Shown: positions 31,039 through 45,612, counted from the stretch's first letter. The stretch is DNA of 64,000 bases from Dehalococcoidia bacterium (GCA_041653995.1 JBAZEK010000001.1:1030613-1094612), one strand, 5' to 3'. Numbers and translations are program-made. The notes: generated by a model from the sequence alone, not told the origin.

Positions 31039-31275
31039 TTACATGATGTAGGGCGTGCGGCAGCATTTAAGTGCAACACGATGAGAACATATGGTGGGCG
31101 ATACTGGATTTGAACCAGTGACCCCCTGTGTGTAAGACAGGTAAAAACCTTTAATTGACTGGAGCTTATTGATAATCTCTAGGGAAGCCTTACGTTGTCC
31201 TGAAAGAATCATGCTCAAATAGCTTTTACTGATACCTAATTCTTTGGCTAATTGACTCTGTGTTAACTTTTTCAT
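31039..31275 (-). CDS. XRE-family HTH regulator (island-borne; C-terminus reads through attL into host flank)
   Basis: LTQSQLAKELGISKSYLSMILSGQRKAS HTH_3 motif. The last ~35 codons are encoded by the att repeat and flank. Confidence 0.55.
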   Translation of the reverse strand: MKKLTQSQLAKELGISKSYLSMILSGQRKASLEIINKLQSIKGFYLSYTQGVTGSNPVSPTICSHRVALKCCRTPYIM

Positions 31276-31530
31276 TTATTTCACCCGCCTTTTTATATCC
31301 TTTAAGCCTGCGTTTCCAATTATCGGTAAATATTGGTACGACTTCTTCTGTCTTCCTTTTGCACTAAAGTTCCCCTGTGGTTTTCTCACAAAATGACAGT
31401 CTACCTCATCAATAAGCCATCTCCGTCCAATGTAGAGTGCATTAATCCGTCCCTCTGACAAAAGCTTACGAACCCGTCTCTCAGATATACCAAGCCTTTC
31501 TGCTGCCTGTGGAACCGTAAGTAGTTTCAT
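31276..31530 (-). CDS. excisionase-like HTH DNA-binding protein
   Basis: LLTVPQAAERLGISERRVRKLLSEGRINALYIGRRWLI is an Xis/MerR-type HTH_17-like motif. Confidence 0.6.
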   Translation of the reverse strand: MKLLTVPQAAERLGISERRVRKLLSEGRINALYIGRRWLIDEVDCHFVRKPQGNFSAKGRQKKSYQYLPIIGNAGLKDIKRRVK

Positions 31531-31823
31531 TCAATTACCTTCTATCATTTTAATATTATACCGTTATCGGAATAATGTCAAGTATAATTACAAGCTAAAA
31601 TATCTTTTCTTTTTGCCGCATTTTTCCATAATACTCCGCAGAATTTTTTCAAATCGTATTTAAATTAAGTTTTAAAAGTTCAAGAATGAGGGTTTATAAT
31701 ATGCATATAAACTGGAAGCATATGGAAGGAAGCACGATAGAAAGTTAGAACGTAAGCAAGCGAGTAAGCAAGAAGGAAAGCAGGCGAGCAGGGAAGCTAT
31801 GTTGCTTTCCTTTTTTTAATTTT

Positions 31824-32057
31824 TTGATTCGGAGGTACGAAATGACTGAAAACAAGGTCAAGGAAATTAGATTGAGCAAATGCATGAATCAGAGAGAACT
31901 GGCAGAGAGAGCTCATATCTGTCAAACAGCTATTTCAGACATTGAAAGGGGGGTAAGACTACCATGGAAAGCAGCGTCTGAAAAGCTTGCTATTGCATTG
32001 GGTGTCACAATCGAGGAATTATTCCCAAACAATCTTAGGGGAGGTAAAAATTGCTAA
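31824..32057 (+). CDS. XRE-family HTH regulator (divergent from Xis-like gene)
   Basis: MNQRELAERAHICQTAISDIERG motif. A 290-bp AT-rich divergent intergenic region resembles a lysogeny-type switch. Confidence 0.75.
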   Translation: MIRRYEMTENKVKEIRLSKCMNQRELAERAHICQTAISDIERGVRLPWKAASEKLAIALGVTIEELFPNNLRGGKNC

Positions 32058-32398
32058 ACAAAAATAGAACGTCTTTAAAGCTGGGAAACAAGAAAGTAGG
32101 CTACTTTGAAGGTGATAAATTCATCAAACCCGTAATCGGCTCAAAGCATCTGCTGAAATTTCCTTACCAAGCTTGGGCAATTGATGCCAAAGTATTTGAC
32201 GATGAAATTAAACCTAACGCCAATTATTTTATTGTAAGAGATAGGGAGTCGGGGCTTGAATATAGTTGTACGGTAAAGGACTTCGACAATTTAAAGCGAA
32301 CCATTAACAGAGGGTATGGTAAGCAGTACAGTCTATCTCTAAAACATTGGAAAATAGCAGCTATGGAAGACGCTGAAGCTTCCAGTAACGCAACATAG
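32051..32398 (+). CDS. hypothetical protein
   Basis: 115 aa ORF co-oriented with and overlapping the XRE gene. No recognisable motif. Confidence 0.4.
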   Translation: MLNKNRTSLKLGNKKVGYFEGDKFIKPVIGSKHLLKFPYQAWAIDAKVFDDEIKPNANYFIVRDRESGLEYSCTVKDFDNLKRTINRGYGKQYSLSLKHWKIAAMEDAEASSNAT

Positions 32399-32528
32399 AG
32401 TAGTGCAGCACCCGTTTTAGTAGTTGGAGGTGCTGTGTAAAAATGGTATTAGACAGAAGGAAAAGGCTGATGGAGGAGGGTATGACTCGCCATGATATTT
32501 CAGGAGCCTACTTATTTAATCAATTCAA

Positions 32529-33026
32529 GTGAGTTGTAATAGATGGTCATACCTATTCGATGGTCTTAAGGAGGAAAATATGATTCAGGGCATAGAAAAT
32601 TATATAAATTTAACAGATACCAAGAATGAATGGGCAAAATTTCTAAATGGCTTTGAATGGCATTGGTTCTTTACTCTCACATTTGATAAAAAGGTAAGTG
32701 ATGACTTGGCATACAAGCAATTCTTTAGGTGGAAGAATTGGATAAAGAGTTCAGTAGGACACAGAATTTTCTATCTAATTATTCCTGAGCGTCCCAAGTA
32801 TAAGGGAGATAATACTCATATTCATGGATTTCTTAATGGTGTTGAAAATGAGAAACCCTACATATGGAGAAGGAAATGGGAGGCAATGGCAGGCTTTTCT
32901 CGGATTCAACCCTATGATAGTTCAAGGGGTGCAAGCTATTATCTAGCGGATAAAATTGTATTTAAAGAAGAGGATATTTATCATAGCAAAGACCTAAATA
33001 TGATAAAGATAAATACACTCAATTAA
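32529..33026 (+). CDS. putative HUH-superfamily rolling-circle replication initiator (Rep)
   Basis: Three motifs in canonical order: motif I FFTLTF, motif II HIHGFL (HUH) and motif III SYYLADK (YxxxK). Confidence 0.45.
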   Translation: MSCNRWSYLFDGLKEENMIQGIENYINLTDTKNEWAKFLNGFEWHWFFTLTFDKKVSDDLAYKQFFRWKNWIKSSVGHRIFYLIIPERPKYKGDNTHIHGFLNGVENEKPYIWRRKWEAMAGFSRIQPYDSSRGASYYLADKIVFKEEDIYHSKDLNMIKINTLN

Positions 33027-33165
33027 ATCCATTATATATATCAATATGATTATTACTACAAACATCAATATTTATTTCTTTTACTTTTACTTTTCCTTAT
33101 GCCCCTTTTTTATTTTTGCCCCAAATATGAATTAAATATAAATATCTACAATTAATTGCATAAAA

Positions 33166-33858
33166 TTGGGGCATAGGGAAAAAATCACATATAAAATTCA
33201 AATAGAAAGTCAGGAGGAATCAGTAAGTAAAATGAGTACAATAATTTCAAAACCTACGACAATTCAAATTAGCATGCTTGGGACACATGCCTTTTGTGAA
33301 TATAGGATATATCTTGAGCTTGTTATGGGTTTTAAAGCACGAGGTACACCAGAAATGCTTGAAGGCACAAAAGCACACTCAAGGATAAATACGATGGCTT
33401 TCTTAACGAGAGATTCAAATATTAGCATTGAGGATGCGTTGCTCCAAGCAGAGTCAGACGGAAGAGAAATAACAAAAAGGAACGTACGGGTAACAGGTAA
33501 GATACTACGTGGGAATATCGATGAAATTCACATTGGGCCAAAAGAAATTACGATTATAGATGATAAAAAATGGGCAGAGCATTATCCATCATATAAAAAT
33601 CAAGTCTTTGGCTATTGCCTTGCGTTTAAAGAACAATACAACCCAAAGCAGCCGATATACGGTGCCATAAAGAATTATCAGTCTGGAAAGGAAGTCTGGA
33701 AAAAACAATTTTCAGTTTTGGAAGAGGAATATATAAACGGCATTGTTCAAAGAATACTGGGGATAATTCGTGAGGATATCACTCCAAAACCCATTGGTGT
33801 TAGAGAAGTATGCTGGCAATGTGGATTTAAAAATTACTGCAATGTAAGGACACGATAG
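33166..33858 (+). CDS. Cas4-like / PD-(D/E)XK RecB-family nuclease with 4-Cys cluster
   Basis: An N-terminal Cys (HAFCEY), a D...IDDKK nuclease core, a QVFGY (QxxxY) motif and a C-terminal CWQCGFKNYC three-Cys motif. No CRISPR array is nearby. Confidence 0.5.
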   Translation: MGHREKITYKIQIESQEESVSKMSTIISKPTTIQISMLGTHAFCEYRIYLELVMGFKARGTPEMLEGTKAHSRINTMAFLTRDSNISIEDALLQAESDGREITKRNVRVTGKILRGNIDEIHIGPKEITIIDDKKWAEHYPSYKNQVFGYCLAFKEQYNPKQPIYGAIKNYQSGKEVWKKQFSVLEEEYINGIVQRILGIIREDITPKPIGVREVCWQCGFKNYCNVRTR

Positions 33859-33895
33859 CAAAATGGTGGAAAAAGGAAAAAGAAGAAACTAACTA

Positions 33896-34159
33896 CTATA
33901 CTGCCTTGAAACCCACAATAAAGTAATTTGATTTATCAAATATAAGTCTTATCTTGTGTTCTGAATTATCCTTGCCGGCCAGGGCAATTAAGAATGATAG
34001 CTTCTTTGGATTAGTAACTGTCTTAGAAATTGGACGATGGACAATAAAACCCTCAAGTTCAATCTTCACATATCTACAGCCAGTCTTCGGATATGGCAAA
34101 TCCTTCTCTTCCACAATATCTATATATTTGCATATGGCTGAATTTGTCCTTCTTGGCAT
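33896..34159 (-). CDS. hypothetical protein
   Basis: 87 aa ORF on the opposite strand within the island. Confidence 0.3.
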   Translation of the reverse strand: MPRRTNSAICKYIDIVEEKDLPYPKTGCRYVKIELEGFIVHRPISKTVTNPKKLSFLIALAGKDNSEHKIRLIFDKSNYFIVGFKAV

Positions 34160-34503
34160 ATTTATTTCCTTTCTTCCCTTTTCCGCTAAATTTAAACTAA
34201 ATATAAATATCTACAAATTATTATATTAAATCCACAACCAAATTTGAATATGAATGCCACAGATAAATGGCGGAAAAGAAAAAGAGTCTTAGAGATATTA
34301 TTATTTTGTATTATTTTCTTTAATAGTCAGATAGCAAGTGTGGCTAAGGGCAATTTTACCTTTAAAAATATTGAATCTGGTTGTCATTTGTCTAGTGCTT
34401 TAAAAATAGAAAACCTTCACGTGTGAGAAATGCCAGTAGCACGTGTATTAGAAGCGGCATTTTAAATAAAATCTTAGCCCAAAGTCATAGCAAATATAGA
34501 TTG

Positions 34504-34532
34504 TTGCATGCGTCCTTTTAATACGATAGAAT
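34504..34532 (+). promoter_or_regulatory. sigma70-like promoter TTGCAT-17-TAGAAT (copy 1 of duplicated promoter-leader)
   Basis: The same architecture recurs at 40413-40441. It is followed by a GGGGAG RBS and an ATG at 34559. Confidence 0.5.
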
Positions 34533-34558
34533 ACGGTCAATGTAGTGAGGCTGGGGAG

Positions 34559-36502
34559 ATGAAATATTTACTTGCTTGTTTCATAGCACTATTCGTTATA
34601 TCAGCCTGTGCATCTCAAGTCCATGTTGGTGACCAAGCTCCAAACTTCACACTGACAGATATAAATGGTAAACGTATTAGTCTGCAAGATTTTCGTGGCA
34701 AGCAGGTTGTTCTTTATCTTTGGTTTTTATATTGTCCTGAATGTACAGAAGACCTTGCTGAGATTCAAGAGTTGAATAATAATAGTGACGAAAGAGTCAT
34801 TAAGTTCCTAACCATTAACCCAGAAAATTCATCAAAAGACGTTGCGGATTTTTTCACTAAAAATGGATATAGTTTCCCAGTTTTGTTTGATTTAGATGGA
34901 AGTATTTACAAGCAATATAATTTACGACCTCGGTCTGCACCCTACACAATAATTATTGCTCCTGATGGAAAGATTAACAATATTACAGTGGGGAATCTTC
35001 ATTATCAAGGTGGTTTAAAACGGTTAATTGGAGATAACGTAACATCCTTCAGTCCAAGTGCACAAACTCAAAAGACTCCAATAATTATCGTACCCAGTTT
35101 ACAATCTCATGGTGTCGATGAACTTGCTTATGTATCTAGCGAAACGAACACGAACTCTATATATGTCGTGAATGCAAACGGGGAATATATTGCTAACTCA
35201 TCTGGAAAAATGGATGCATTATACCATGTTAGTTGGTCGCCAAACGGAGATAAGATTATTTTTGAAGTGGTTAAAGATATCAATATAGACCAGAGAAATA
35301 TGACCCTTATTTCTTCGTCTGATATTTATTCTCTTGATATTAAAGACCATGAAGAGCGTAGACTTACTTCAAATTATCCGTATAGCAATTGTTCTCCCAC
35401 ATGGATTGAAGACGATAAAATCGTATTTTATTCAACAAGGGGAAGTTCGTATGGCAGTTTTTTACAAAATATATACATCATGAACGCAGACGGAAGTAAT
35501 CAGATAAATTTAACTAATTGTGCAGAGAATGTACCTATGGTATTAGAACCAATATTATCGCCTGACCACTTGTCTGCAGCATATATTACGGGTAAGTTAT
35601 TCGATGAAGATATATATGTGATAAACCTAGTGAATGGAAATAAATTTGAAATAGGCCATAATCCAACATTTGCACCCTGGACTTGGTGGTCTCCAAACAG
35701 TAAACAGATAGCGTATATATCTGCCTCTCTAAACGGGGGGCCTGAATCATTTTATCTCTACGATGTCGAAAAACAGAAACCGATAAAATACTATGATAGC
35801 CCTCAATCTTATTCTATTATGGAAATAGCATGGTCGCCAGACAGTAACAAAGTCGCTATTTTTGAAAAACCGCAGAGCTTGTATGTTTTAGATTGTCTGA
35901 GTTCCAAGTTTACAAAACTTGATGGGATATGTGACTGGGTAGTAGAGATGAAATGGATACCTAATAACCAACAAATAGCCATTATTGGTGACAGGTTTAC
36001 AAACAGAAACTTGTATGTAATTGATATTGGTGAGCAGAGTAAGCATAAAATCAATCCAGAGGGAACGGCAGTCGAGTCGTATCGATGGTCAACTGATAAT
36101 ACAAGAATCATTTATTGCTTAGATGATGGATATCTTTACACAACTTTCCTACCCAACTTAAATACCATAAAACTAATGCAACTTAATAAAAATACGATAA
36201 AAGGGTTAGCTTTGTCACCAGACGGTTTATTAATCGCTGTTGCTCTGAGTGACGATACTCTAACTGTAATTTCATTAAACAATAACAAGGTGTGCTTGTT
36301 AACTAATGATTATTACAATATTGGAGCAATTTCTTGGTCGCAAAACAGTAACATACTTGCATTTGAATACGGAACTTTATGGGATAGTCCGTTTGTATGC
36401 AGTAACATTCAAATCATCAATTTCGAAAACGAGGAACAGTTCATTAAATTAGATAAACCAATCTCAGGACGCTCTCCAATTTGGGCGAGAAAGGAAAAAT
36501 AA
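34559..36502 (+). CDS. lipoprotein: TlpA-like thioredoxin-fold (CPEC) domain fused to TolB-like beta-propeller
   Basis: Signal/lipobox MKYLLACFIALFVISAC. The redoxin motif is GKQVVLYLWFLYCPEC. The C-terminal ~450 aa carry repeated SWSPNGDKI, AWSPDSNKVA and RWSTDNTRII PD40-like blades. Track ORF 34508 probably starts at 34559. Confidence 0.75.
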   Translation: MKYLLACFIALFVISACASQVHVGDQAPNFTLTDINGKRISLQDFRGKQVVLYLWFLYCPECTEDLAEIQELNNNSDERVIKFLTINPENSSKDVADFFTKNGYSFPVLFDLDGSIYKQYNLRPRSAPYTIIIAPDGKINNITVGNLHYQGGLKRLIGDNVTSFSPSAQTQKTPIIIVPSLQSHGVDELAYVSSETNTNSIYVVNANGEYIANSSGKMDALYHVSWSPNGDKIIFEVVKDINIDQRNMTLISSSDIYSLDIKDHEERRLTSNYPYSNCSPTWIEDDKIVFYSTRGSSYGSFLQNIYIMNADGSNQINLTNCAENVPMVLEPILSPDHLSAAYITGKLFDEDIYVINLVNGNKFEIGHNPTFAPWTWWSPNSKQIAYISASLNGGPESFYLYDVEKQKPIKYYDSPQSYSIMEIAWSPDSNKVAIFEKPQSLYVLDCLSSKFTKLDGICDWVVEMKWIPNNQQIAIIGDRFTNRNLYVIDIGEQSKHKINPEGTAVESYRWSTDNTRIIYCLDDGYLYTTFLPNLNTIKLMQLNKNTIKGLALSPDGLLIAVALSDDTLTVISLNNNKVCLLTNDYYNIGAISWSQNSNILAFEYGTLWDSPFVCSNIQIINFENEEQFIKLDKPISGRSPIWARKEK

Positions 36503-36527
36503 GAAATTTCAAAAATGGAGACTGAAT

Positions 36528-36824
36528 ATGACTGGCGAATTGGGAAATTTTGTTATCGTCATGGGATTACCCTGTTTAGGAGCGCTGTTAATAGCTTTTT
36601 GTTCATTACCAACCGATAAATGGACAATAAAACACACTTTTATGTTGGTGGGAACTTCACTAATTTTTATTAGCTTTATTTTGCAAGCATATCAGATTAT
36701 TGATAAATACCCTGATAAAAATGAATATATATTTGGATGGTGGATTGTCGGTTTAGCTACCGTTATCATGGCTATAATAGGGCAAATTATTAGAATCAGA
36801 TACGGTAAAAGTTGGTTCCAATAG
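36528..36824 (+). CDS. small membrane protein
   Basis: 98 aa with three hydrophobic helices. Confidence 0.4.
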   Translation: MTGELGNFVIVMGLPCLGALLIAFCSLPTDKWTIKHTFMLVGTSLIFISFILQAYQIIDKYPDKNEYIFGWWIVGLATVIMAIIGQIIRIRYGKSWFQ

Positions 36825-36920
36825 GATAATAAAATAGTGGGAAAGGAAAGAGAAGGAAATTTAATTAGCTATCTATATTTAAGATAAGAGTGACTTATAG
36901 AACTTCATTGAGGTTGGGAG

Positions 36921-37451
36921 ATGCAACAACAGTATCAATGCCCTAATTGTAGGTATCCAGTTGCTTATGGGAATAATTTCTGTGGACATTGTAGACAACA
37001 ACTAATCTGGCAACAATTAATGCCACCTTCACCACCAGTACACCATCAGCAAACACCACAAGGCATTATTGGGAAATCACACGAGCAAAACACTTCTGGA
37101 CAAGGTGGTCAATCAATAATACCCGATGAAAAGCGTATTAAACTTCCAAAACTCAATATTCGTTTCGACTTTGAGTTGTTTCAAGCAATTGAGGACAATG
37201 ACCGTAAACTGGCTGAACAGCTCAAAGCAAAATATGGGGATGATGTTTATAATTCCAATTTTTATAACCTGCTTAGTATCGAAGACGCTAACTCAGTAGA
37301 CTCACTTCATCTTAAACTAGTATCAGTTGAAAAAATGAATTTCAATGATATTTTATGCGAAAGTATCAAAATAGAGACTGAAAAAGTACGCAAAAGGATA
37401 GAGGAGCTTGAGAATATAAAAAATTTACGCAACGGGATTGAGGAAGTGTAA
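36921..37451 (+). CDS. zinc-ribbon protein (MQQxYxCPxC family N-terminus)
   Basis: MQQQYQCPNCRYPVAYGNNFCGHCRQQLIW matches the N-termini of chromosomal genes at 56282 and 58107. The rest is charged and coiled-coil-like. Confidence 0.55.
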   Translation: MQQQYQCPNCRYPVAYGNNFCGHCRQQLIWQQLMPPSPPVHHQQTPQGIIGKSHEQNTSGQGGQSIIPDEKRIKLPKLNIRFDFELFQAIEDNDRKLAEQLKAKYGDDVYNSNFYNLLSIEDANSVDSLHLKLVSVEKMNFNDILCESIKIETEKVRKRIEELENIKNLRNGIEEV

Positions 37452-37511
37452 GGAACTGACTAAACCCCTGAAACTGGCAGCTCGAGTAAGAAAAATGGCG
37501 GGAAAGAAAAT

Positions 37512-39368
37512 TTGATTTATATGTTATGGGATGATACGTATCGTAAAGATGCAGCGGAGTATGAAATCTATCTGCGTATGCATCATAAAGAAAAAAACGA
37601 TTACGAGAAGCTTTTATCTAATCTTGAACGTGAGTGGTCAGAAAAATCAGTTAAAGAAGAAAACTACATATCGCTTAAAAAGGAATACACAGCGAAACTA
37701 CAGGAAACAAAGAAGTACATTTCAAAGCTGAAATTCCAGATTACAGCACTCATTAAAAAATGTAATAAAGACATAGATAAAATCGATAGCCAAATTGAAC
37801 AAATTAAATTGCGGCACAAAGTTGGTGAATATTCAGAGGAGAAACTCAAAGAACTATTATCACCATCTGAAACAGAAAGAAGGCAATTTGAATCCTTAAT
37901 AATCGAACTGAAACGCATACATGGCTTGAAATATATACCTAAACCAACTACCGATGATGTTGTATCAGAAACAGAACCGAGTCAGCCTAGAAGGTCTCCT
38001 ATCCCAACGTCATCTACTTCTATTTCAACAGCTGAAGAGCAAGCCCCCGAAATATCAGCACCAATGAGTTTTGAAGAACCGCCTCCTATTTTGGTACCTG
38101 CTGTATTTAAAAAGTCTTCACCTGTAAGAGTAAAGAAGAGTCTGTGGATTATGGCTTCGATTACTATGTTTGTAATATTAATTCTCTGTTTTGTTATTTG
38201 GAATATAGAAGTGCATAAAAAGGTAATCCCTCAGATTGGAGACCAAGCTCCAAACTTCTCTCTCCCAGATATGAATGGTAAAACGGTTAACCTTCAGGAC
38301 TTTCACGGAAAGGGTGTTGTTCTTTACCTTTGGGACACATCATGTCCTTACTGCAAAAATGACCTTAGCTGGATAAATGAATTAAATGGCTGCACCTATG
38401 ACGAAGCAATAATATTTTTAACTATTAATATCTCAGATTCACGTGGAACAGCTATTAAATATTTTGAGGAAAATGGATATAGTATTCCCGTTTTAAATGA
38501 TATGCGTGGGACGGTTATTAAGCAGTATGTAAAGTACACCTTAGGCCATACGTATCCAGATACTATTCTTATTGGTTCAAATGGCCAGATTCGTAATGTA
38601 AAAGTCGGGCCCTTCCAAAGCAAGACTGAATTAAAAACATTTATAGAATCAGGTTTAACCCCCCGTTGGGATAATACTCCTCCACAAATTTATGATATTA
38701 ATCTTTCTAAGGCCTCTATTTTGAGTTGGAAAACGGATGAGGAAACACATAGTAATATACAAGGGTTTCGTAATAGTGTCGGAGGTGCTGGAGTCACTCT
38801 TGGTGAAAATTGGACAAGATATCATAGCGTAAATGAAACAGTTTGCACTAATGGCTACTATGACCAAATTCAAATCAACTCGTATGACCGCTGCGGTAAT
38901 TCTGCTTCAAAAGTTTTTACACTGCCCAACTGCATAAATTTAGGTTGTAGAGCTCCTGATTTCACAGCAACTTCAACTAATAATCAGGATATAACGCTGT
39001 CCGCAGTACCTAGCAAAATGACTCTACTTCACTTCTGGCTACTCGGATGTGGTGCATGTGAAAAGGAACTTCCATTAATCCAAAAACTATATTATGAGCG
39101 TCCTAGAGAAGAACTTGAGATATTGGCTGTGAATGTTAGAGGTGACATATACAGCATAAATGACTTCGTTACTGCAAATGGTTATAGATTAATTATTTTA
39201 CTAGATACAGAAGGCATAATAGATGCCGCCTATCATAATCCAAGGTTCCCCACAACCTTTTTATTGGATTGCAATAAGGTAATTATTAACAAGCATGACG
39301 GTGCCTTTCAAAATTATGAAGAAATCGTTGATTTTGTAGGTCAGTATCCAAAACTTCCTGGTAAATAG
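37512..39368 (+). CDS. membrane-anchored protein with N-terminal coiled coil and two TlpA-like thioredoxin-fold domains (CPYC and CGAC)
   Basis: TTG start. Single TM (LWIMASITMFVILILCFVIW). Domain 1 is IPQIGDQAPNFSL...VVLYLWDTSCPYCKND. Domain 2 is GCRAPDF...LLHFWLLGCGACEKE. Confidence 0.7.
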   Translation: MIYMLWDDTYRKDAAEYEIYLRMHHKEKNDYEKLLSNLEREWSEKSVKEENYISLKKEYTAKLQETKKYISKLKFQITALIKKCNKDIDKIDSQIEQIKLRHKVGEYSEEKLKELLSPSETERRQFESLIIELKRIHGLKYIPKPTTDDVVSETEPSQPRRSPIPTSSTSISTAEEQAPEISAPMSFEEPPPILVPAVFKKSSPVRVKKSLWIMASITMFVILILCFVIWNIEVHKKVIPQIGDQAPNFSLPDMNGKTVNLQDFHGKGVVLYLWDTSCPYCKNDLSWINELNGCTYDEAIIFLTINISDSRGTAIKYFEENGYSIPVLNDMRGTVIKQYVKYTLGHTYPDTILIGSNGQIRNVKVGPFQSKTELKTFIESGLTPRWDNTPPQIYDINLSKASILSWKTDEETHSNIQGFRNSVGGAGVTLGENWTRYHSVNETVCTNGYYDQIQINSYDRCGNSASKVFTLPNCINLGCRAPDFTATSTNNQDITLSAVPSKMTLLHFWLLGCGACEKELPLIQKLYYERPREELEILAVNVRGDIYSINDFVTANGYRLIILLDTEGIIDAAYHNPRFPTTFLLDCNKVIINKHDGAFQNYEEIVDFVGQYPKLPGK

Positions 39369-39441
39369 ATAATTTCTTGATATTAAGAAATCGAGGTGTA
39401 CTGGTCTGAACCCCTGAAACTGGACAGCTTGAGTAAGAAAA

Positions 39442-39951
39442 ATGGCGGAAAAAGAAATGCAACAGGAGGAGCATCCCCTAAATATGGGGAAGCTACTTGT
39501 GAATTTCCAATCACTTGAGATAGCTCTCCGTCTATTTCTTTATAATGATGAAATTGCCTCTAGAGTTTCATCTCCTCAGGCGGTAAACCTAAATGCTATG
39601 AATGCGGGGGATATAGTAGCTGAAAATGCGTTCACAAACTATGATAGTCTAAGTCAACTCATTGATAAATATAATAACCATCCCAACATCATATCGACAG
39701 GTCTAACCATTGATAAGACTTTAGTGGACATACGTGATGCAATAGCTCATGGAAGAGTCGCTGGAGTCACTCCTTTGCTTGTGCCTCCTTTAAAACTAAT
39801 GAAGTTTGATAAACCAAAGAACAAAAGTGTGAAAGTAACATTTAGCGTTTTATTGACAAGGGAATGGTTCATTCTAGAGATGGCTAAGGTTCAAGATGCA
39901 GTTTTTAAAGTCTTTCAAGCTATCCAAATAATACAGAGTGCTAAGACATAA
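39442..39951 (+). CDS. hypothetical protein with possible HEPN-like Rx4H motif
   Basis: 169 aa. RDAIAHGR fits Rx4-6H. The evidence is weak. Confidence 0.35.
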   Translation: MAEKEMQQEEHPLNMGKLLVNFQSLEIALRLFLYNDEIASRVSSPQAVNLNAMNAGDIVAENAFTNYDSLSQLIDKYNNHPNIISTGLTIDKTLVDIRDAIAHGRVAGVTPLLVPPLKLMKFDKPKNKSVKVTFSVLLTREWFILEMAKVQDAVFKVFQAIQIIQSAKT

Positions 39952-40412
39952 GTGGTGCCCTCTGAAATCGCTCTGAGGGGCTGAAATCAGGGTGTTGCAT
40001 ATTGAACATGACGGATTCCACCTGTCATTACTATTCCAGCTTAATTAGAGCCTTTAAAGTATTAAACAGTAAAGGTAATAACTCTACTTCCTTTCCCTTA
40101 AGCCCCTTTATTATTTCTTCGCCTAAGTTTCCGTTCAAGTGAATTATGTCGCTTTTAAGACCAACAAACGCTGGTACACCATAAACACGTTTACGTTCAA
40201 GCCAATTATGTCGTTTTGCATATATTATTTCCAGCTTAAATTAACTACAGAAAAATGGGGCAAAAAGAGAAAAAGGGGAATTATATATCAATTTATTGTC
40301 AATAATCTTTGAAATACTATTACTTCATCTGAGAGAGATGCCAGCAGCTAAGTGTAACGGCATTGAATTTTAAATAACTTCTCAGCCCAAAGTGGTAACG
40401 CATATAGGTCTA

Positions 40413-40441
40413 TTGCATAAGTATTGTTCATATAATAGAAT
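40413..40441 (+). promoter_or_regulatory. sigma70-like promoter TTGCAT-17-TAGAAT (copy 2 of duplicated promoter-leader)
   Basis: 83 bp spanning promoter -10, RBS and the first 17 codons is identical to 34526-34608. Confidence 0.5.
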
Positions 40442-40467
40442 ACGGTCAATGTAGTGAGGCTGGGGAG

Positions 40468-41880
40468 ATGAAATATTTACTTGCTTGTTTCATAGCACTA
40501 TTCGTTATATCAGCCTGCACACCAAATAACTCAATAAACAACGTTGAGACATTCCCAAAAATCGGAGATAAGATACCGAATATCTCATGGACTACTATCA
40601 ATGGCGAAAAGATTGATTTAAATCAGTTTAAAGGCAGTTGGGTGCTACTATGCTATTGGTGCTCTTGCCCTGTACATAGGAATGACATACTGACTATTCA
40701 TAATGTTTATGATTCATTATATGATAAGAATCTCGATGTCATTGTAATTAATGATACTTATGCTCAGATAGAATTAGAGGCATTTGGAAAACAAAACAAT
40801 GTACCGTTTTATTTAATTGAAGATAATCAAAAAACAATTGATAAACTTGTACCATTTGGCAACAGGCCAATATATCTCTTAATTGATGGGAGTGGGGATT
40901 TACATGCTATCGAAATAGGTACATTTCGCTCTGGCGAAAATAGCGTTAACAATGTAATCAATTTCCTTGATGATGTGATTAAGGTAAGAATCGATAATAT
41001 TACAGTCACTAATATTACTTCAAATAGGGCAACTGTGAGATGGAAAACAGATAAGGCAGTACCGTGTTGGTTGGAAATTCACCCCCAAGGTGACCCAATC
41101 GGAAAGTGCATCGGCAAGACAAATCCAAATACATTTCATGAATTGATATTAAACTGTAATCCCAACACAGCTTACACTTTTAACGTAGCTGCTAGTGGAT
41201 TAGATAATTCTTTAATTAACGATGCAAGCAATCGTAGTAGTGAATTTTCATTTCAAACATTACCAAATTGGGTTACTTCTTTATATGAGGTTGACTCTAC
41301 TAAACCAAAAATATCGAATGTTAAAGTTTCTATAATTACAGATACGAGTGCAGAGTTATATTGGGAAACTGATGTGGAAGCTCAAGTCACCGCTACAATC
41401 TGTAAATATATATCCAGTACTGATGCGCCCTTAAACTCCCAGAAAATTGATTTTATAGAAGACATATATTTTACAAAGAAACATAGCTTTACAATTAGCT
41501 CTCTTGAGCCAAGACGATTATATGACGTTGGTTTAAATGCCAAAGATAGAATGGGAAGGGTTGCCGATTACAGTGTCGAATTTTTAACACAACCTTCAAA
41601 TTATACTCACGGAGCGAAGATATCCAATATATCTTTATATGACATCACGGACAGGAGTGCTAAATTAAAATGGTCAACTGACAAGTCAGTATGGAGTTCA
41701 GCCTGCTATAAATATGAGTGCTCTTCTGGGGACATCAACACTGAGCATTCATATACACTATCCTATGGTCTGGAACCCGATACAGAATACTGGGTGCAAA
41801 TTCTAGCACATGGGGAATCGGTATCTGATGTATTCAACTTCAGAACATTAAAGACAACAGATAAGGTAGATATGAAATGA
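40468..41880 (+). CDS. lipoprotein: TlpA-like thioredoxin-fold domain with variant CYWCSC motif plus three FN3/PAP-N-like domains
   Basis: Identical signal peptide MKYLLACFIALFVISAC. IGDKIPNISW...WVLLCYWCSCPVHRND. Three ~95-aa domains of type ITVTNITSNRATVRWKTD / VKVSIITDTSAELYWETD / ISNISLYDITDRSAKLKWSTD. Confidence 0.7.
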   Translation: MKYLLACFIALFVISACTPNNSINNVETFPKIGDKIPNISWTTINGEKIDLNQFKGSWVLLCYWCSCPVHRNDILTIHNVYDSLYDKNLDVIVINDTYAQIELEAFGKQNNVPFYLIEDNQKTIDKLVPFGNRPIYLLIDGSGDLHAIEIGTFRSGENSVNNVINFLDDVIKVRIDNITVTNITSNRATVRWKTDKAVPCWLEIHPQGDPIGKCIGKTNPNTFHELILNCNPNTAYTFNVAASGLDNSLINDASNRSSEFSFQTLPNWVTSLYEVDSTKPKISNVKVSIITDTSAELYWETDVEAQVTATICKYISSTDAPLNSQKIDFIEDIYFTKKHSFTISSLEPRRLYDVGLNAKDRMGRVADYSVEFLTQPSNYTHGAKISNISLYDITDRSAKLKWSTDKSVWSSACYKYECSSGDINTEHSYTLSYGLEPDTEYWVQILAHGESVSDVFNFRTLKTTDKVDMK

Positions 41881-41907
41881 AAGAAAATCAAAAGGGAGGT
41901 AAAGAAG

Positions 41908-42084
41908 ATGGTAGCAAATAAGAAGAAGTATTATGCAGGGGAATCAGCTAAAGTCTCTGGCAAATACAACGAATGCAGATTGGGCACAGGCAAAACAGGA
42001 GTAACAGCAAATGTCAAGAAGGGGGATACACTCCCACCACATAAAATAGGAGCTCATTGGGAGTTATCAAGAAAATCTAAATAA
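41908..42084 (+). CDS. small ORF (58 aa) with strong RBS, not in supplied track
   Basis: AAAGGGAGGTAAAGAAG precedes the ATG at 41908. It encodes MVANKKKYYAGESAKVSGKYNECRLGTGKTGVTANVKKGDTLPPHKIGAHWELSRKSK. Confidence 0.3.
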   Translation: MVANKKKYYAGESAKVSGKYNECRLGTGKTGVTANVKKGDTLPPHKIGAHWELSRKSK

Positions 42085-42316
42085 TATAGACATATTTAAG
42101 AAAGTGGTGACTTATAAAACTTCATGCTGTCCTGAAAGCTGAATGACCGAGTATATCTTTGCACCATAATAAAGTTCAGCCAAGGCACCGTTAAAATGTA
42201 CTACAGAATTGTTCTAAAGGGCCAAAATGGGGTATATAATATAGGGCATGACAGATTCTTCCTGCCTGAGCTTTTCAAGCTTAATTATTGAACAAATAAC
42301 TATGAAATCCTGATTG

Positions 42317-43081
42317 CTAACGAGGTAACTGATTTGAGCCGTTCACATCTTTGTAGACTTGAAGAGCATCCTCAAAGGATAAAGATTTTGAATACCTTTC
42401 AACCATAGAAATGCTTTCCCAACCGCCTAGATTTTGCACAATACGAGTGGATAACCCAGACTTAATATTGTGAATACAAAACCCTCTTCTATAGCTATGG
42501 GCGTTGGACTTAATGCCAGTTTCTTTAGACAATCGTTTAAGCATAGTTTTAATGCCAGCTCTTGATATTTCAAAACTATCATGCTCATCAAACCACTTTC
42601 CGATAACACCATTACCAGCTAAAGCCTTACGATACTTGTTACCCTTGCCCAGAATGGTTACTGTACCTTCACCCCAGTCAAAGTCTTTAGCGTGCACATT
42701 AGCACATTCACTCAGCCTTACTCCTGAGTACCATAAGAAACTAATTAATGCTCTATCACGTTCACAATGACAATGATTTATCAGAACTTCTAATTGTTCT
42801 TTTGATACCGCAGGCAATAGCTTCTTTTGAATTTTTGGGCTAGGAACTTTGTCAATAACCTTGTCGTGAATATAGCTATTGCTGTATAGCCATGAAATGA
42901 GAGTTTTGAGAGCTTGATAGAATCTTGCTTTGCCATTATGACAGGTAAGTGATTTTAGATAAGCATTAACTCCATCTGGACTTAGGGGATAACCAATAAA
43001 ATGAGTTAAAGTATATTCGTAAAATTCAATAGTTCGCTTACTACAACCATCGGGGCGAGAAGAAATAAACTTCTCCAACAA
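42317..43081 (-). CDS. int: tyrosine recombinase / integrase (short XerC/D-like)
   Basis: 254 aa with catalytic R (WYSGVRLSE), K (LGKGNKYRK), HSYRRG (HxxR), R and the terminal VERY tyrosine. Its start is 63 nt from tRNA-Val. Confidence 0.85.
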   Translation of the reverse strand: MLEKFISSRPDGCSKRTIEFYEYTLTHFIGYPLSPDGVNAYLKSLTCHNGKARFYQALKTLISWLYSNSYIHDKVIDKVPSPKIQKKLLPAVSKEQLEVLINHCHCERDRALISFLWYSGVRLSECANVHAKDFDWGEGTVTILGKGNKYRKALAGNGVIGKWFDEHDSFEISRAGIKTMLKRLSKETGIKSNAHSYRRGFCIHNIKSGLSTRIVQNLGGWESISMVERYSKSLSFEDALQVYKDVNGSNQLPR

Positions 43082-43143
43082 TTCTTTTGTGAACTTTTTG
43101 TAGCTAACTTGTGAATATTGTGAAATTGAGCTGTAGTTTTCTT

Positions 43144-43219
43144 TGGTGGGCGATACTGGATTTGAACCAGTGACCCCCTGTGTGTAAGACAGGTGCTCTA
43201 ACCGCTGAGCTAATCGCCC
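43144..43219 (-). tRNA. tRNA-Val (anticodon TAC); integration target
   Basis: 76-nt cloverleaf. Anticodon loop CTTACAC. CCA is encoded. It is highly similar to canonical tRNA-Val. Confidence 0.9.
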
Positions 43220-43226
43220 TGGGGAG

Positions 43227-43302
43227 TGGCACGCCTGGTGGGGCTTGAACCCACGGCCTCAGCCTCCGCAGGGCTGCGCTCTATCCACTGAGCTACAGGC
43301 GC
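43227..43302 (-). tRNA. tRNA-Arg-like with anticodon GCG as read
   Basis: 76-nt cloverleaf. Its overall sequence resembles tRNA-Arg(CCG), but the anticodon loop reads CTGCGGA. CCA is encoded. Confidence 0.7.
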
Positions 43303-43308
43303 ATAAAA

Positions 43309-43396
43309 TGGTGCCGAAGGTGGGAGTTGAACCCACACATCCGTTACGGATACTACGCCCTGAACGTAGCGCGTCTGCCATTCCGCCACTTCGGCC
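43309..43396 (-). tRNA. tRNA-Leu (anticodon CAG), long variable arm
   Basis: 88 nt. Anticodon loop TTCAGGG. A long extra arm and an encoded CCA are present. Confidence 0.85.
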
Positions 43397-43397
43397 C

Positions 43398-43470
43398 TGG
43401 GCAGCACAGGATTTGAACCTGTGACCCCTTGCGTGTGAAGCAAGTGCTCTAACCGCTGAGCTAGCCGCCC
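43398..43470 (-). tRNA. tRNA-Val (anticodon CAC)
   Basis: 73 nt without encoded CCA. Anticodon loop TTCACAC. Acceptor and T arms resemble the Val(TAC) gene. Confidence 0.85.
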
Positions 43471-44586: not shown

Positions 44587-45612
44587 ATGCAGCAATGGAT
44601 AAGATGCACCAGATGCGGCGCCAATAATGCTCCCGGACAGAAATTCTGTAACGCATGCGGTACACCCCTGCCGACCGTCTGCCCCAATTGCGGAACCCCG
44701 GCAGGTCCCGGCAGCACTTTCTGCGCCAGGTGCGGCATGACATTCAGCGGTATGCCCCAGCAGACCGGATATTACCCTCCGCAGCAGCCGGGATATCCTC
44801 AGCAACCTGGCTATCCGCAGCAACCGGCATATCCGCAACAGCCGGGCTATCCTCAGCAACCGGGCTATCCTCAGCAACCGGGCTATCCGCAACAGCCGGG
44901 ATACCCGCAACAGCCTGGATATCCGCAGCAGCCCCCCGGCTACCCGCCTCAACAGACCGGCTATTATCCTCCGCAGCAGCCGGGTTATCCTCCACAGCCG
45001 GGATATCCGCAGCAACCGCCCGGTTATCCGCCGCAGCCGGGATATCCGCAACAGCCCGGCTATCCCCAGCAACCGGGATATCCGCCGGGCTATCCTCCGC
45101 AGCAGCCGCCACGCGGAGCGTATCCGCCGGGCGCAAGGCCACCCCAGCAAGGCGGCGGCAAAGGCATGCTCATATTGCTGCTGGTTGTTCTGATTGCCGG
45201 CCTGGCAGGCTTCGGTTACTGGGCTTACAGCCAGGGCTACCTCAAGGGCATACTTAACTTCGGCAGCGATAACACCACCACCTCCACAGGGAAACAGAAG
45301 GACACTGTGCCGCCCACCATCAGCGGCGTAGAAGTTAGCGCCAAGGCCATAAACGAAGTCGGCATTATCTGGAAGACGGACAAGCCATCCAGTTCTCAGG
45401 TGGAATGGGGTCCCAAGGGATCGTTCGGCAACAAGACGACACTACAGGATGACCCCGTGAGCGGTACCAGCATCGGTGTCACCGATCACGGGGTTATCGT
45501 CAAGGGATTAACGGCAAATACTGAATACCAGTACCGTGTGTTATCACATACCGACGGCAACGTTGACGCCGTATCCGCCACCAATACTTTCACGACACCT
45601 TCGGCAGATTAA
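44587..45612 (+). CDS. double zinc-ribbon / PQQPGY-repeat / TM / FN3-like surface protein
   Basis: N-terminus [23 protein letters not shown]. About 25 PQQPGY hexapeptide repeats are encoded by an 18-bp DNA tandem. Then a TM helix and a C-terminal Ig/FN3-like domain. Confidence 0.6.

What the first reader, a model, noticed from the sequence alone, without database searches (positions are those of the whole stretch)
31092..43194. Low-GC 12.1-kb integrative element inserted into tRNA-Val(TAC) with perfect 51-bp att repeats
The 51 nt from 43144 to 43194 (3' end through the anticodon stem of tRNA-Val-TAC) are repeated exactly at 31092-31142. A short tyrosine recombinase (HxxR...VERY) sits 63 nt from the tRNA. 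Xis-like and XRE genes sit at the other end. GC falls from ~60% to ~35% between the repeats. The cargo is unusual: an HUH Rep-like gene, a Cas4-like nuclease and three secreted thioredoxin-fold proteins. An XRE gene reads through attL.
Basis: seen in the sequence. Interest (0 to 1): 0.8.

Follow-up and report, generated by a model that had tools for sequence, protein, structure and literature searches.

The report
Integrated plasmid that splits its integrase
This is a 12-kb mobile element inserted in a tRNA-Val gene of a Dehalococcoidia bacterium whose attachment site lies inside its own integrase gene, so insertion cuts that gene in two, an arrangement a 2021 review called exclusive to archaea.

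Summary
An exact 51-bp direct repeat (31092-31142 = 43144-43194) is the 3' part of tRNA-Val(TAC). It brackets 12 kb of 36% GC DNA in a 54% GC genome.

The 'XRE gene reading through attL' and the 'short integrase' are two halves of one gene. Joining the ends as in the excised circle gives a single stop-free 336-codon ORF: HTH_3 domain, then a linker encoded by the att core, then a Xer-like recombinase. A xis-like gene precedes it.

Among 88 related loci, 77 have the integrase half directly beside a tRNA. In 13 of 14 distinct elements with both ends, the circle restores an in-frame fusion. These use three tRNA targets: Val, Ala and Glu. One metagenome contig carries the intact xis plus fused gene. 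No start codon is conserved for the integrase half.

The family is Xer-like, not the archaeal SSV type. The window's copy adds a small HUH Rep, a Cas4-like nuclease and three exported thioredoxin-fold proteins. Neither excision nor an empty site was observed.

Verdict: a real element, and a new variant of a known kind, namely a bacterial self-splitting integrase.

The parts
31092..31142 (.). attL core: displaced copy of the 3' 51 nt of tRNA-Val(TAC)
   Evidence: It is identical to 43144-43194. Together with 18 nt of element DNA it scores as a weak pseudo-tRNA (Rfam 32.4 bits).
43144..43194 (.). attR core, inside the intact tRNA-Val(TAC)
43144..43219 (-). tRNA-Val(TAC), the integration target. 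It is the last gene of a Val(CAC)-Leu-Arg-Val(TAC) cluster at 43144-43470.
   Evidence: ARAGORN; Rfam 74.2 bits. The same cluster is the target in L097-L110 and L160.
31039..31275 (-). Int(N): the 5' part of the split integrase gene as it reads in the integrated state. It gives 78 aa: an HTH_3 domain, 17 aa encoded by the core, and a tail encoded by host DNA.
   Evidence: Pfam HTH_3, E = 1.2e-10. It is in frame with Int(C) across the reconstructed attP. Its HTH is homologous to the N-terminus of the intact fusion P0055.
42317..43143 (-). Int(C): the 3' part of the split integrase gene, comprising the Xer-like core-binding and catalytic domains. The mechanical ORF runs 42317-43081 from a TTG. 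The frame stays open upstream through the 62-nt spacer and the tRNA.
   Evidence: Pfam PF00589, E = 3.3e-21. The catalytic R, K, HxxR, W and Y are invariant. The frame is open upstream. No start codon is conserved at this position in 68 relatives.
31276..31530 (-). xis-like HTH_17 gene. It directly abuts the start of Int(N) and is the first gene of the xis-int operon.
   Evidence: Pfam HTH_17, E = 2.8e-10; PHROG excisionase families. The same xis-then-int order occurs in the intact form L084 and in other family elements.
31531..31823 (.). Divergent intergenic region with promoter-like sites facing xis-int (minus strand, 31581-31553) and XRE2 (plus strand, 31671-31700)
   Evidence: Consensus scan only; the count is not above the shuffled expectation. 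Inferred.
31824..32057 (+). Second XRE-type HTH_3 regulator, first gene of the rightward module
   Evidence: Pfam, E = 5.9e-10; PHROG repressor families
32051..32398 (+). orf115, function unknown, shared with two other family elements
   Evidence: tblastn hits in L160 and L154; no Pfam, PHROG or NCBIfam hit
32529..33026 (+). Small HUH-type Rep, a candidate rolling-circle initiator (probable start 32580)
   Evidence: PF23343 scores 27.6 to 28.0 bits against a cut-off of 27.8. The family has 632 representatives with conserved TLTF / HxH / YxxK motifs. A family profile hits the SIRV1 ORF119 Rep, 2x3g, E = 0.006.
33166..33858 (+). Stand-alone Cas4-like PD-(D/E)XK nuclease
   Evidence: PF01930 scores 30.7 bits against a cut-off of 22.7. 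TIGR00372 scores 51.5, below its cut-off of 65. PADLOC Cas4 models hit at 1e-14.
34508..36502 (+). Cargo: exported thioredoxin-fold (AhpC-TSA/Redoxin, CPEC motif) protein with beta-propeller repeats
36528..37451 (+). Cargo: a 98-aa membrane protein and a 176-aa zinc-ribbon protein
37512..39368 (+). Cargo: membrane-anchored protein with two thioredoxin-fold domains
   Evidence: AhpC-TSA, E = 3.8e-38, two stretches
39442..39951 (+). orf169, function unknown
   Evidence: No significant family hit
40468..41880 (+). Cargo: lipoprotein with a thioredoxin-fold domain and fibronectin-III repeats. Its 5' region duplicates that of 34508-36502.
   Evidence: Pfam; 87% identical 150-nt duplication, 34459-34608 against 40367-40517

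Best explanation
The segment from 31092 to 43194 is a small plasmid-like integrative element. It inserted by tyrosine-recombinase site-specific recombination into the 3' half of tRNA-Val(TAC) of a Dehalococcoidia bacterium.

Its attP core lies inside its own integrase gene. In the excised circle, xis is followed by one 336-codon gene with three parts:
- an N-terminal HTH_3 DNA-binding domain;
- a linker encoded by the 51-bp tRNA-identical core plus a 62-nt spacer;
- a complete Xer-like core-binding and catalytic module.

Recombination with the tRNA cuts this gene in two. Int(N) is a 78-aa HTH protein that stays behind the xis promoter and gains a tail encoded by host DNA. Int(C) is 254 codons long, lands at the other end next to the tRNA, and has no promoter of its own and no conserved start codon.

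Integration therefore stops synthesis of full-length integrase and creates a free-standing HTH protein. The circle is probably copied by the small HUH Rep through rolling-circle replication. I infer that an episomal or related co-resident copy, or a tandem insertion, supplies intact integrase for excision, as proposed for archaeal 'suicidal' integrases.

What is shown and what is inferred:
- **Shown:** the repeats, the tRNA target, the compositional break, the in-frame reconstruction, its conservation across the family, and one contiguous intact gene.
- **Inferred:** what each half does after integration, the replication mode, and how or whether the element excises.
For: **Boundaries.** The 51-bp repeat is exact and equals the tRNA 3' end, and GC is 36% against 54%.

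**Reconstructed circle.** It gives a 336-aa stop-free ORF joining the HTH ORF, the core and the integrase.

**Intact relative.** P0055/L084 (324 aa, PF01381 + PF00589) is preceded by an overlapping HTH_17 gene. Its HTH shares the motif LGISKSYLSMILSG with the window's ORF.

**Survey of 88 related loci.**
- 77 have the integrase half no more than 200 nt from a tRNA: Glu-CTC 32, Ala-GGC 24, Val-TAC 16, others 5.
- Every locus long enough to hold the far end has a homologous HTH ORF 5 to 10 kb downstream on the same strand.
- In all but one of these (L119, where the contig ends just past the HTH) the HTH ORF is followed by a 26 to 56 nt repeat of the tRNA.
- 13 of 14 distinct elements reconstruct an in-frame, stop-free fusion. 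Linker lengths differ and three different tRNA cores are used, one of them read antisense.

**No separate start for the integrase half.** In 68 non-redundant loci, the codons at the window's putative TTG start are mostly CTG, CTA, CTC or TTA. The conserved residues SSQKFT(T/K)E lie upstream of it.

**Domain layout.** Int(C) aligns with XerA from its residue 13 onward, so it is a complete Xer-like core and the HTH is an added domain. The AlphaFold model of P0055 shows the HTH at residues 1-37. The core-encoded residues 41-70 are an unstructured low-confidence linker, and the core-binding domain starts at residue 75.

**Replication.** The Rep motifs and family support a rolling-circle initiator. 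Sister elements carry AAA_25 helicase or D5-type primase-helicase genes instead, so autonomous replication modules are the rule.
Against: - No attP junction and no empty attB of this particular element was found. Logan contigs of the same organism simply break inside the repeat or the tRNA cluster.
- For the window alone, the in-frame, stop-free junction has a chance probability of about 0.07: one third for the frame times 0.20 for no stop, and the core is open in all three frames.
- Only one clearly intact contiguous gene (L084) was seen, against hundreds of split ones.
- A TTG exists at 43081 that could start an independent 254-aa Int(C).
- The presence of a xis-like gene implies regulated excision, which a truly 'suicidal' integrase would not need.
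- The P0055 model is only moderately confident (pLDDT 65.7).
- The Rep sits on the Pfam threshold, and its predicted structure was too poor to confirm the fold.
Confidence: 0.85

Rival explanations
1. This is a conventional island with two independent genes. A short Xer-like integrase is translated from the TTG at 43081, and a separate XRE regulator happens to read into attL. The in-frame junction in the circle has no function.
For: A TTG start exists at 43081 and gives a 254-aa protein with all catalytic residues and a full Xer-like two-domain core. For the window alone, the chance of the in-frame junction is about 0.07. Public annotations call the two halves separately.
Against: 13 of 14 distinct relatives keep the frame and have no stop across attP, despite different tRNA cores and linker lengths. 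An intact fused gene exists in L084. The TTG position is a non-start Leu codon in most relatives, and conserved residues precede it. No promoter-like site lies between the tRNA and Int(C) on the minus strand.
Confidence: 0.08
2. This is a trapped or decaying relic. The element integrated once and can no longer move, so the split gene is only the first step of decay.
For: No attP or attB evidence was found. Decayed relatives are common:
- L083 has only int fragments and no Int(N).
- L107 is frameshifted.
- L086 is a lone Int(C).
- L136/L139, L177 and L178 carry remnants.
Against: The repeats are perfect. All element ORFs are intact, including both integrase halves, xis, Rep and Cas4. The split arrangement is the conserved state of many intact elements, not an accident of this copy.
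Confidence: 0.2
3. This is an integrated ssDNA or other virus. The HUH Rep replicates a viral genome, and the large exported proteins are virion or entry proteins rather than cargo.
For: The HUH Rep belongs to the ORF2/G2P family found in ssDNA phages and archaeal viruses. A stand-alone Cas4-like nuclease is common in viruses, which I state from general knowledge. Several ORFs have no assigned function.
Against: No capsid, portal, terminase, morphogenesis or lysis family was hit in Pfam or PHROGs. IMG/VR holds no close relative of the Rep or the integrase. Sister elements are 5 to 10 kb and carry plasmid-type helicase or primase genes plus defence cargo.
Confidence: 0.05

Closest known systems
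SSV-type ('suicidal') integrases of archaeal viruses and plasmids (SSV1/SSV2, pTN3, pT26-2)
   Same: attP lies inside the integrase ORF near its 5' part. Integration into a tRNA gene splits int into int(N) and int(C), and the catalytic part lies next to the tRNA. The elements are small and self-replicating, and they pervade genomes as integrated copies (PMC8371274, PMC7253208).
   Different: The host is bacterial: Dehalococcoidia/Chloroflexota. The protein is Xer-like (PF00589), not PF16795. The part split off is a recognisable HTH_3 domain, and an xis-like gene precedes int. The 2021 review states that such integrases occur exclusively in archaea.
Myxococcus phage Mx8 IntP
   Same: This is a bacterial case in which attP lies inside the int coding sequence, so that integration changes the gene product (PMC6070905, PMC4383910).
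   Different: In Mx8 the site is near the 3' end. Integration swaps the C-terminus and leaves an active, altered integrase. Here the cut is near the 5' end and separates a whole N-terminal domain, together with the promoter and start codon, from the recombinase core.
Integration-dependent immunity of mycobacteriophages (BPs, Brujita, cluster P)
   Same: attP lies inside a gene for an HTH protein, so integration changes which protein form is made. The genetic switch is thereby tied to the integrated state (PMC4557955, PMC3694055).
   Different: There attP is in the repressor gene and the integrase is a separate gene. Here the HTH is part of the integrase itself. Whether the released HTH protein acts as a repressor is untested.
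pSAM2-type integrative rolling-circle plasmids of actinomycetes
   Same: These are elements of about 11 kb with a xis-int operon, a tRNA att site of about 50 to 60 bp, and a rolling-circle Rep. I state this from general knowledge. Nine of 50 Rep-family relatives also touch the Pfam RepSA model.
   Different: No FtsK-like transfer gene was found here. The window's own Rep does not hit RepSA. The pSAM2 integrase is not split by integration.

Membership tests
tRNA-gene-integrated genomic island (Islander criteria, PMC4383910) | An intact tRNA gene plus a displaced fragment of it in direct orientation, marking the two ends | tested here: met
   The 51-nt exact repeat is the 3' part of tRNA-Val(TAC).
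tRNA-gene-integrated genomic island (Islander criteria, PMC4383910) | A tyrosine integrase ORF inside or overlapping the island; length 2 to 200 kb | tested here: met
   PF00589, E = 3.3e-21. The island spans 12,103 bp including both repeats.
tRNA-gene-integrated genomic island (Islander criteria, PMC4383910) | The site is unoccupied in related genomes | tested here: inconclusive
   The nearest relative (L005, CorC 91%) shows a degenerate 17-nt tRNA-end remnant followed by different DNA on a 1.9-kb contig. No relative shows CorC directly followed by tRNA-Val.
SSV-type / suicidal integrases | The recombination site lies inside the integrase ORF, so integration splits the gene into int(N) and int(C) | tested here: met
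   A 336-codon stop-free ORF crosses the reconstructed attP. The same holds in 13 of 14 relatives, and an intact gene is present in L084.
SSV-type / suicidal integrases | Sequence membership (Pfam PF16795, Phage_integr_3) | tested here: not met
   Only PF00589 is hit. The best relatives are XerA, XerC and XerD.
SSV-type / suicidal integrases | Archaeal host | tested here: not met
   NCBI names the source contig and its relatives Dehalococcoidia or Chloroflexota bacterium. The flank relative is a Dehalococcoidales MAG.
SSV-type / suicidal integrases | The split halves are inactive, and full-length enzyme performs integration and excision without helper proteins | not testable with these tools
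   This needs biochemistry. A xis-like gene is present here.
Tyrosine recombinases (Xer-like) | Catalytic R, K, HxxR, H/W and Y residues | tested here: met
   R190, K228, H277, R280, W303 and Y312 are invariant in 18 family members.
Tyrosine recombinases (Xer-like) | XerA, XerC or XerD equivalog score | tested here: not met
   NF040815 scores 109 bits against a cut-off of 220; XerC and XerD score 83 to 86 against about 330.
HUH Rep (Pfam PF23343, REP_ORF2-G2P) | Motifs I (uuTu), II (HuH) and III (YxxK) | tested here: met
   FTLTF, HIHGF and YYLADK are present. T34, F35, H80, H82 and Y121 are at least 90% conserved in 50 relatives.
HUH Rep (Pfam PF23343, REP_ORF2-G2P) | Score at or above the Pfam gathering cut-off, and the HUH fold | tested here: inconclusive
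   The score is 27.6 bits for the 165-aa ORF and 28.0 bits for the 148-aa form, against a cut-off of 27.8. 47 of 50 relatives hit the family. The AlphaFold model has pLDDT 48.8, and Foldseek found nothing significant.
Cas4 | Cas4 domain | tested here: met
   PF01930 scores 30.7 bits against a cut-off of 22.7. PADLOC Cas4 models hit at 1e-14.
Cas4 | Equivalog score and CRISPR-cas neighbourhood | tested here: not met
   TIGR00372 scores 51.5, below its cut-off of 65. No cas gene is among the island ORFs. No CRISPR repeat family was found in the 64-kb window.
Integration-dependent immunity (BPs type) | Integration converts an HTH protein into its active repressor form | not testable with these tools
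   The HTH product does change on integration. Its activity is unknown.

The most novel reading that the evidence does not exclude
Chloroflexota, and Dehalococcoidia in particular, harbour a large family of small self-replicating integrative elements that I did not find described in the papers searched. Their Xer-like integrase gene spans attP. This would be a convergent bacterial counterpart of the archaeal 'suicidal' integrases. Integration would release the N-terminal HTH domain as a stand-alone regulator, which would work as an integration-dependent switch. Placing the att core in a disordered linker would let the family retarget to different tRNAs, in either orientation, without damaging the enzyme.
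Probability: 0.4. Interest if true: 0.8.

Novelty: new variant of a known kind. Interest (0 to 1): 0.7.

Why it matters
Integrases that cut their own gene on integration were described as exclusive to archaea, and their persistence there is treated as an evolutionary paradox (PMC8371274, PMC7253208). A second, unrelated and abundant family in bacteria would show that the arrangement evolved more than once. That would imply it has a selectable benefit, such as one-way commitment, integration-dependent regulation or easy change of target.

The same result matters for annotation. Hundreds of public 'XRE-family regulators' and 'short XerC/XerD integrases' in Dehalococcoidia genomes appear to be halves of one gene. 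Island-finding tools should allow for this.

Dehalococcoidia include the organohalide-respiring bacteria used in bioremediation, which I state from general knowledge. A small site-specific integrating replicon could be a starting point for genetic tools in a group that has few.

Tried and rejected
- **Empty site.** The one genome-collection scan with the CorC flank found one close relative (L005, 91%) on a 1.9-kb contig. It has no tRNA, only a degenerate remnant. Exact look-ups of CorC and the right-flank LTD protein returned only the same occupied locus, or Logan contigs that end inside the repeat or the tRNA cluster. None of the 88 survey loci carries the window's flanks.
- **Circular form of this element.** None was found. 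I spent the single metagenome scan on a family survey rather than on the 51-mer.
- **IMG/VR.** It holds no close relatives of the Rep or the integrase: three scans, best 28% identity.
- **Rep structure.** With a 2-sequence alignment the model had pLDDT 48.8, and Foldseek against the PDB found nothing with E of 0.001 or better. I discarded this result.
- **Arm-type or operator repeats near the att arms.** I found nothing beyond short matches of chance length. Promoter and terminator scans were not above shuffled expectation.
- **Defence role for the cargo.** There are no PADLOC hits except Cas4.
- **L083 as a second complete copy of the Rep-bearing element.** It is decayed: there is no Int(N), only C-terminal integrase fragments, and the contig is full of frameshifts.
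- **SSV-family membership.** Rejected on sequence grounds.


Full report
**1. The observation**

ARAGORN finds tRNA-Val(TAC) at 43144-43219 on the minus strand. It is the last gene of a Val(CAC)-Leu-Arg-Val(TAC) cluster, and Rfam agrees. The 51 nt at 43144-43194 are the 3' end of this tRNA, from the anticodon stem to the encoded CCA. They recur exactly at 31092-31142, and the match extends by zero bases on either side.

GC is 35.9% between the repeats and 53.6% and 54.2% outside. So the drop is real but starts from about 54%, not about 60%.

An ENA metagenome contig (L002) carries the same occupied locus. Its only difference from the window is an 18-nt indel in a host PQ-repeat protein.

**2. 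Gene content**

On the minus strand at the left end there is a 78-aa HTH_3 ORF (31275 to 31039) that reads out through attL. A HTH_17 xis-like gene (31530 to 31276) sits immediately upstream of it.

Rightward on the plus strand come:
- a second HTH_3 regulator;
- orf115;
- a 148-165 aa protein on the threshold of Pfam REP_ORF2-G2P;
- a Cas4-like nuclease;
- a cargo block with three AhpC-TSA/Redoxin proteins (one with beta-propellers, one with two thioredoxin-fold domains, one with FN3 repeats), plus a small membrane protein, a zinc-ribbon protein and two ORFs of unknown function.

At the right end a 254-aa Phage_integrase ORF (43081 to 42317, minus strand) begins with TTG, 62 nt from the tRNA. 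No capsid, transfer or lysis function was detected. PADLOC hits nothing except Cas4.

**3. The key finding: one integrase gene split in two**

I joined the element ends as they would be in the excised circle...43143, then the core, then 31143... The HTH ORF then runs in frame through the 51-bp core and the 62-nt spacer into the integrase ORF without a stop. This gives a 336-codon gene.

For this one locus, chance alone would produce such a junction about 7% of the time. That is one third for the frame times 0.20 for no stop in the spacer, and the core is open in all three frames. The case therefore rests on comparison with relatives.

**4. Comparative evidence**

The integrase has more than 517 homologues with E of 1e-10 or better, at 60-88% identity. 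Those that carry a name are called Chloroflexota or Dehalococcoidia.

Many gene-called homologues have N-terminal extensions that are translations of tRNA sequence. One of them, P0055, is a 324-aa protein with both PF01381 and PF00589. Its contig (L084) shows an overlapping HTH_17 gene directly upstream, which is exactly the predicted attP-form operon. Its HTH shares LGISKSYLSMILSG with the window's left-end ORF.

A metagenome scan with a family alignment gave 80 more loci. With eight loci from look-ups, the survey covers 88 loci:
- 77 have the integrase half within 200 nt of a tRNA: Glu-CTC 32 (read antisense), Ala-GGC 24, Val-TAC 16, Val-CAC 2, Ala-TGC 2, Gly-TCC 1.
- Every locus long enough to hold the far end has a homologous HTH ORF 5 to 10 kb downstream on the same strand.
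- In all but one of these, the HTH ORF is followed by a 26-56 nt repeat of the tRNA part. The exception is L119, where the contig ends just past the HTH.
- Reconstructing the circle restores an in-frame, stop-free HTH-core-integrase gene in 13 of 14 distinct elements. The exception (L107) is frameshifted. Linker lengths differ and three different tRNA cores are used.

In 68 non-redundant loci, the two Leu codons at the window's putative TTG start are mostly CTG, CTA, CTC or TTA. The conserved residues SSQKFT(T/K)E lie upstream of them. So the integrase half has no conserved start of its own.

A profile of the N-terminal region finds 637 proteins. The best 120 are all 65-157 aa 'XRE-family regulators', which are Int(N) halves.

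**5. What kind of recombinase**

Int(C) aligns with Pyrococcus XerA (4a8e) from its residue 13 onward, and it also matches XerD. NCBIfam gives sub-threshold XerA, XerC and XerD hits. Pfam gives only PF00589. The R, K, HxxR, W and Y residues are invariant.

It is therefore a complete Xer-like two-domain core with an added N-terminal HTH. It is not a member of the archaeal SSV family (PF16795).

An AlphaFold model of P0055 (pLDDT 65.7) places a three-helix HTH at residues 1-37. The core-encoded residues 41-70 form an unstructured low-confidence linker, and the core-binding domain starts at residue 75. A linker position would explain how the family tolerates unrelated tRNA-derived peptides in that segment.

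**6. What kind of element**

Only the integrase, the xis-like gene and orf115 are shared with other family members. The Rep occurs only here and in a decayed relative, L083. That relative lies beside tRNA-Ala(TGC) in a related host.

Other members are 5.0-10.2 kb. They carry AAA_25 helicase or D5-type primase-helicase genes, with cargo such as Mrr or TIR-SduA. The family thus looks like a set of small self-replicating integrative plasmids with exchangeable replication modules. IMG/VR holds no close relatives.

The window's Rep belongs to a family of 632 representative proteins. The TLTF, HxH and YxxK motifs are conserved in it, and 47 of 50 members hit PF23343. A family profile weakly hits the SIRV1 ORF119 Rep. 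Structure prediction was uninformative.

**7. Mechanism**

Shown:
- integration into the tRNA with regeneration of the tRNA;
- the split of the integrase gene;
- retention of xis and Int(N) behind the left-end control region;
- placement of Int(C) next to the tRNA, with no promoter-like site in the 62-nt gap by a simple scan.

Inferred:
- full-length integrase is made only from the circle;
- the integrated copy cannot make it;
- excision depends on an episomal or related copy, or on a tandem insertion that rebuilds a hybrid gene (junction remnants of that kind are seen in L177 and L178);
- Int(N) may act as a regulator in the integrated state.

**8. Comparison with what is known**

The topology matches the archaeal SSV-type 'suicidal' integrases. 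A 2021 review says these occur exclusively in archaea.

One bacterial precedent for attP inside int exists, phage Mx8. There the site is at the 3' end and only swaps the C-terminus. Mycobacteriophage integration-dependent immunity places attP in a repressor gene. Full-text searches found no description of a bacterial split-integrase family.

**9. Verdict**

The more interesting result is the self-splitting integrase and the size of its family. Excision, the empty site, and the roles of the two halves remain untested.

Noticed in passing
window 31095-31160 (minus strand): The Rfam tRNA model scores attL plus 18 nt of element DNA at 32.4 bits, above its gathering score of 29. The displaced fragment therefore looks like a weak pseudo-tRNA.
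   Followed up: no
window 34459-34608 and 40367-40517: This is a 150-nt internal duplication at 87% identity. It covers the upstream region and the identical lipoprotein signal peptide (MKYLLACFIALFVISAC) of two thioredoxin-fold cargo genes.
   Followed up: partly
window 42111-42182 (minus strand); L083 16302-16363 and 16927-16993: A 24-aa stretch resembling the integrase C-terminus lies just downstream of the integrase stop codon. It is about 84-89% identical in DNA to two places in the decayed relative L083. It could be a remnant of an earlier copy or a conserved site.
   Followed up: no
L005 930-1861: In the nearest relative (a Dehalococcoidales MAG, CorC 91% identical), the CorC flank is followed by a degenerate 17-nt copy of the tRNA 3' end and then by unrelated small minus-strand genes. 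This suggests a recombination hotspot with different occupants.
   Followed up: partly
L087 3131-3209 and the other Glu(CTC)-type loci: The Glu(CTC)-targeting members recombine in the 5' half of the tRNA and read it antisense. The native upstream region of the tRNA is therefore moved a whole element away. How that tRNA is then transcribed is unexplained.
   Followed up: no
L139 2125-2304 and 8499-15740; L136: One contig holds a 21-aa integrase remnant beside tRNA-Val(TAC) and a complete family element at tRNA-Glu(CTC). So one genome can carry several generations of the family.
   Followed up: partly
L177 3293-3589; L178 2503-2904: These are contiguous HTH, core and first 40-70 integrase codons, followed by host genes. 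They look like decayed hybrid junctions, of the kind a tandem insertion would create.
   Followed up: partly
window 44842-44859: An 18-nt indel in the PQ-repeat zinc-ribbon host protein is the only difference between the window and the ENA contig over 19.4 kb.
   Followed up: yes
P0090: A family integrase (66% identical) sits on a 4.7-kb contig binned as a Hermodarchaeia archaeon. This is either mis-binning or a wider host range.
   Followed up: no
L085 1-1765: Two family integrase genes flank a single tRNA-Glu(CTC). The downstream element is longer than 10 kb and carries a restriction-modification system and an AAA_25 helicase.
   Followed up: no
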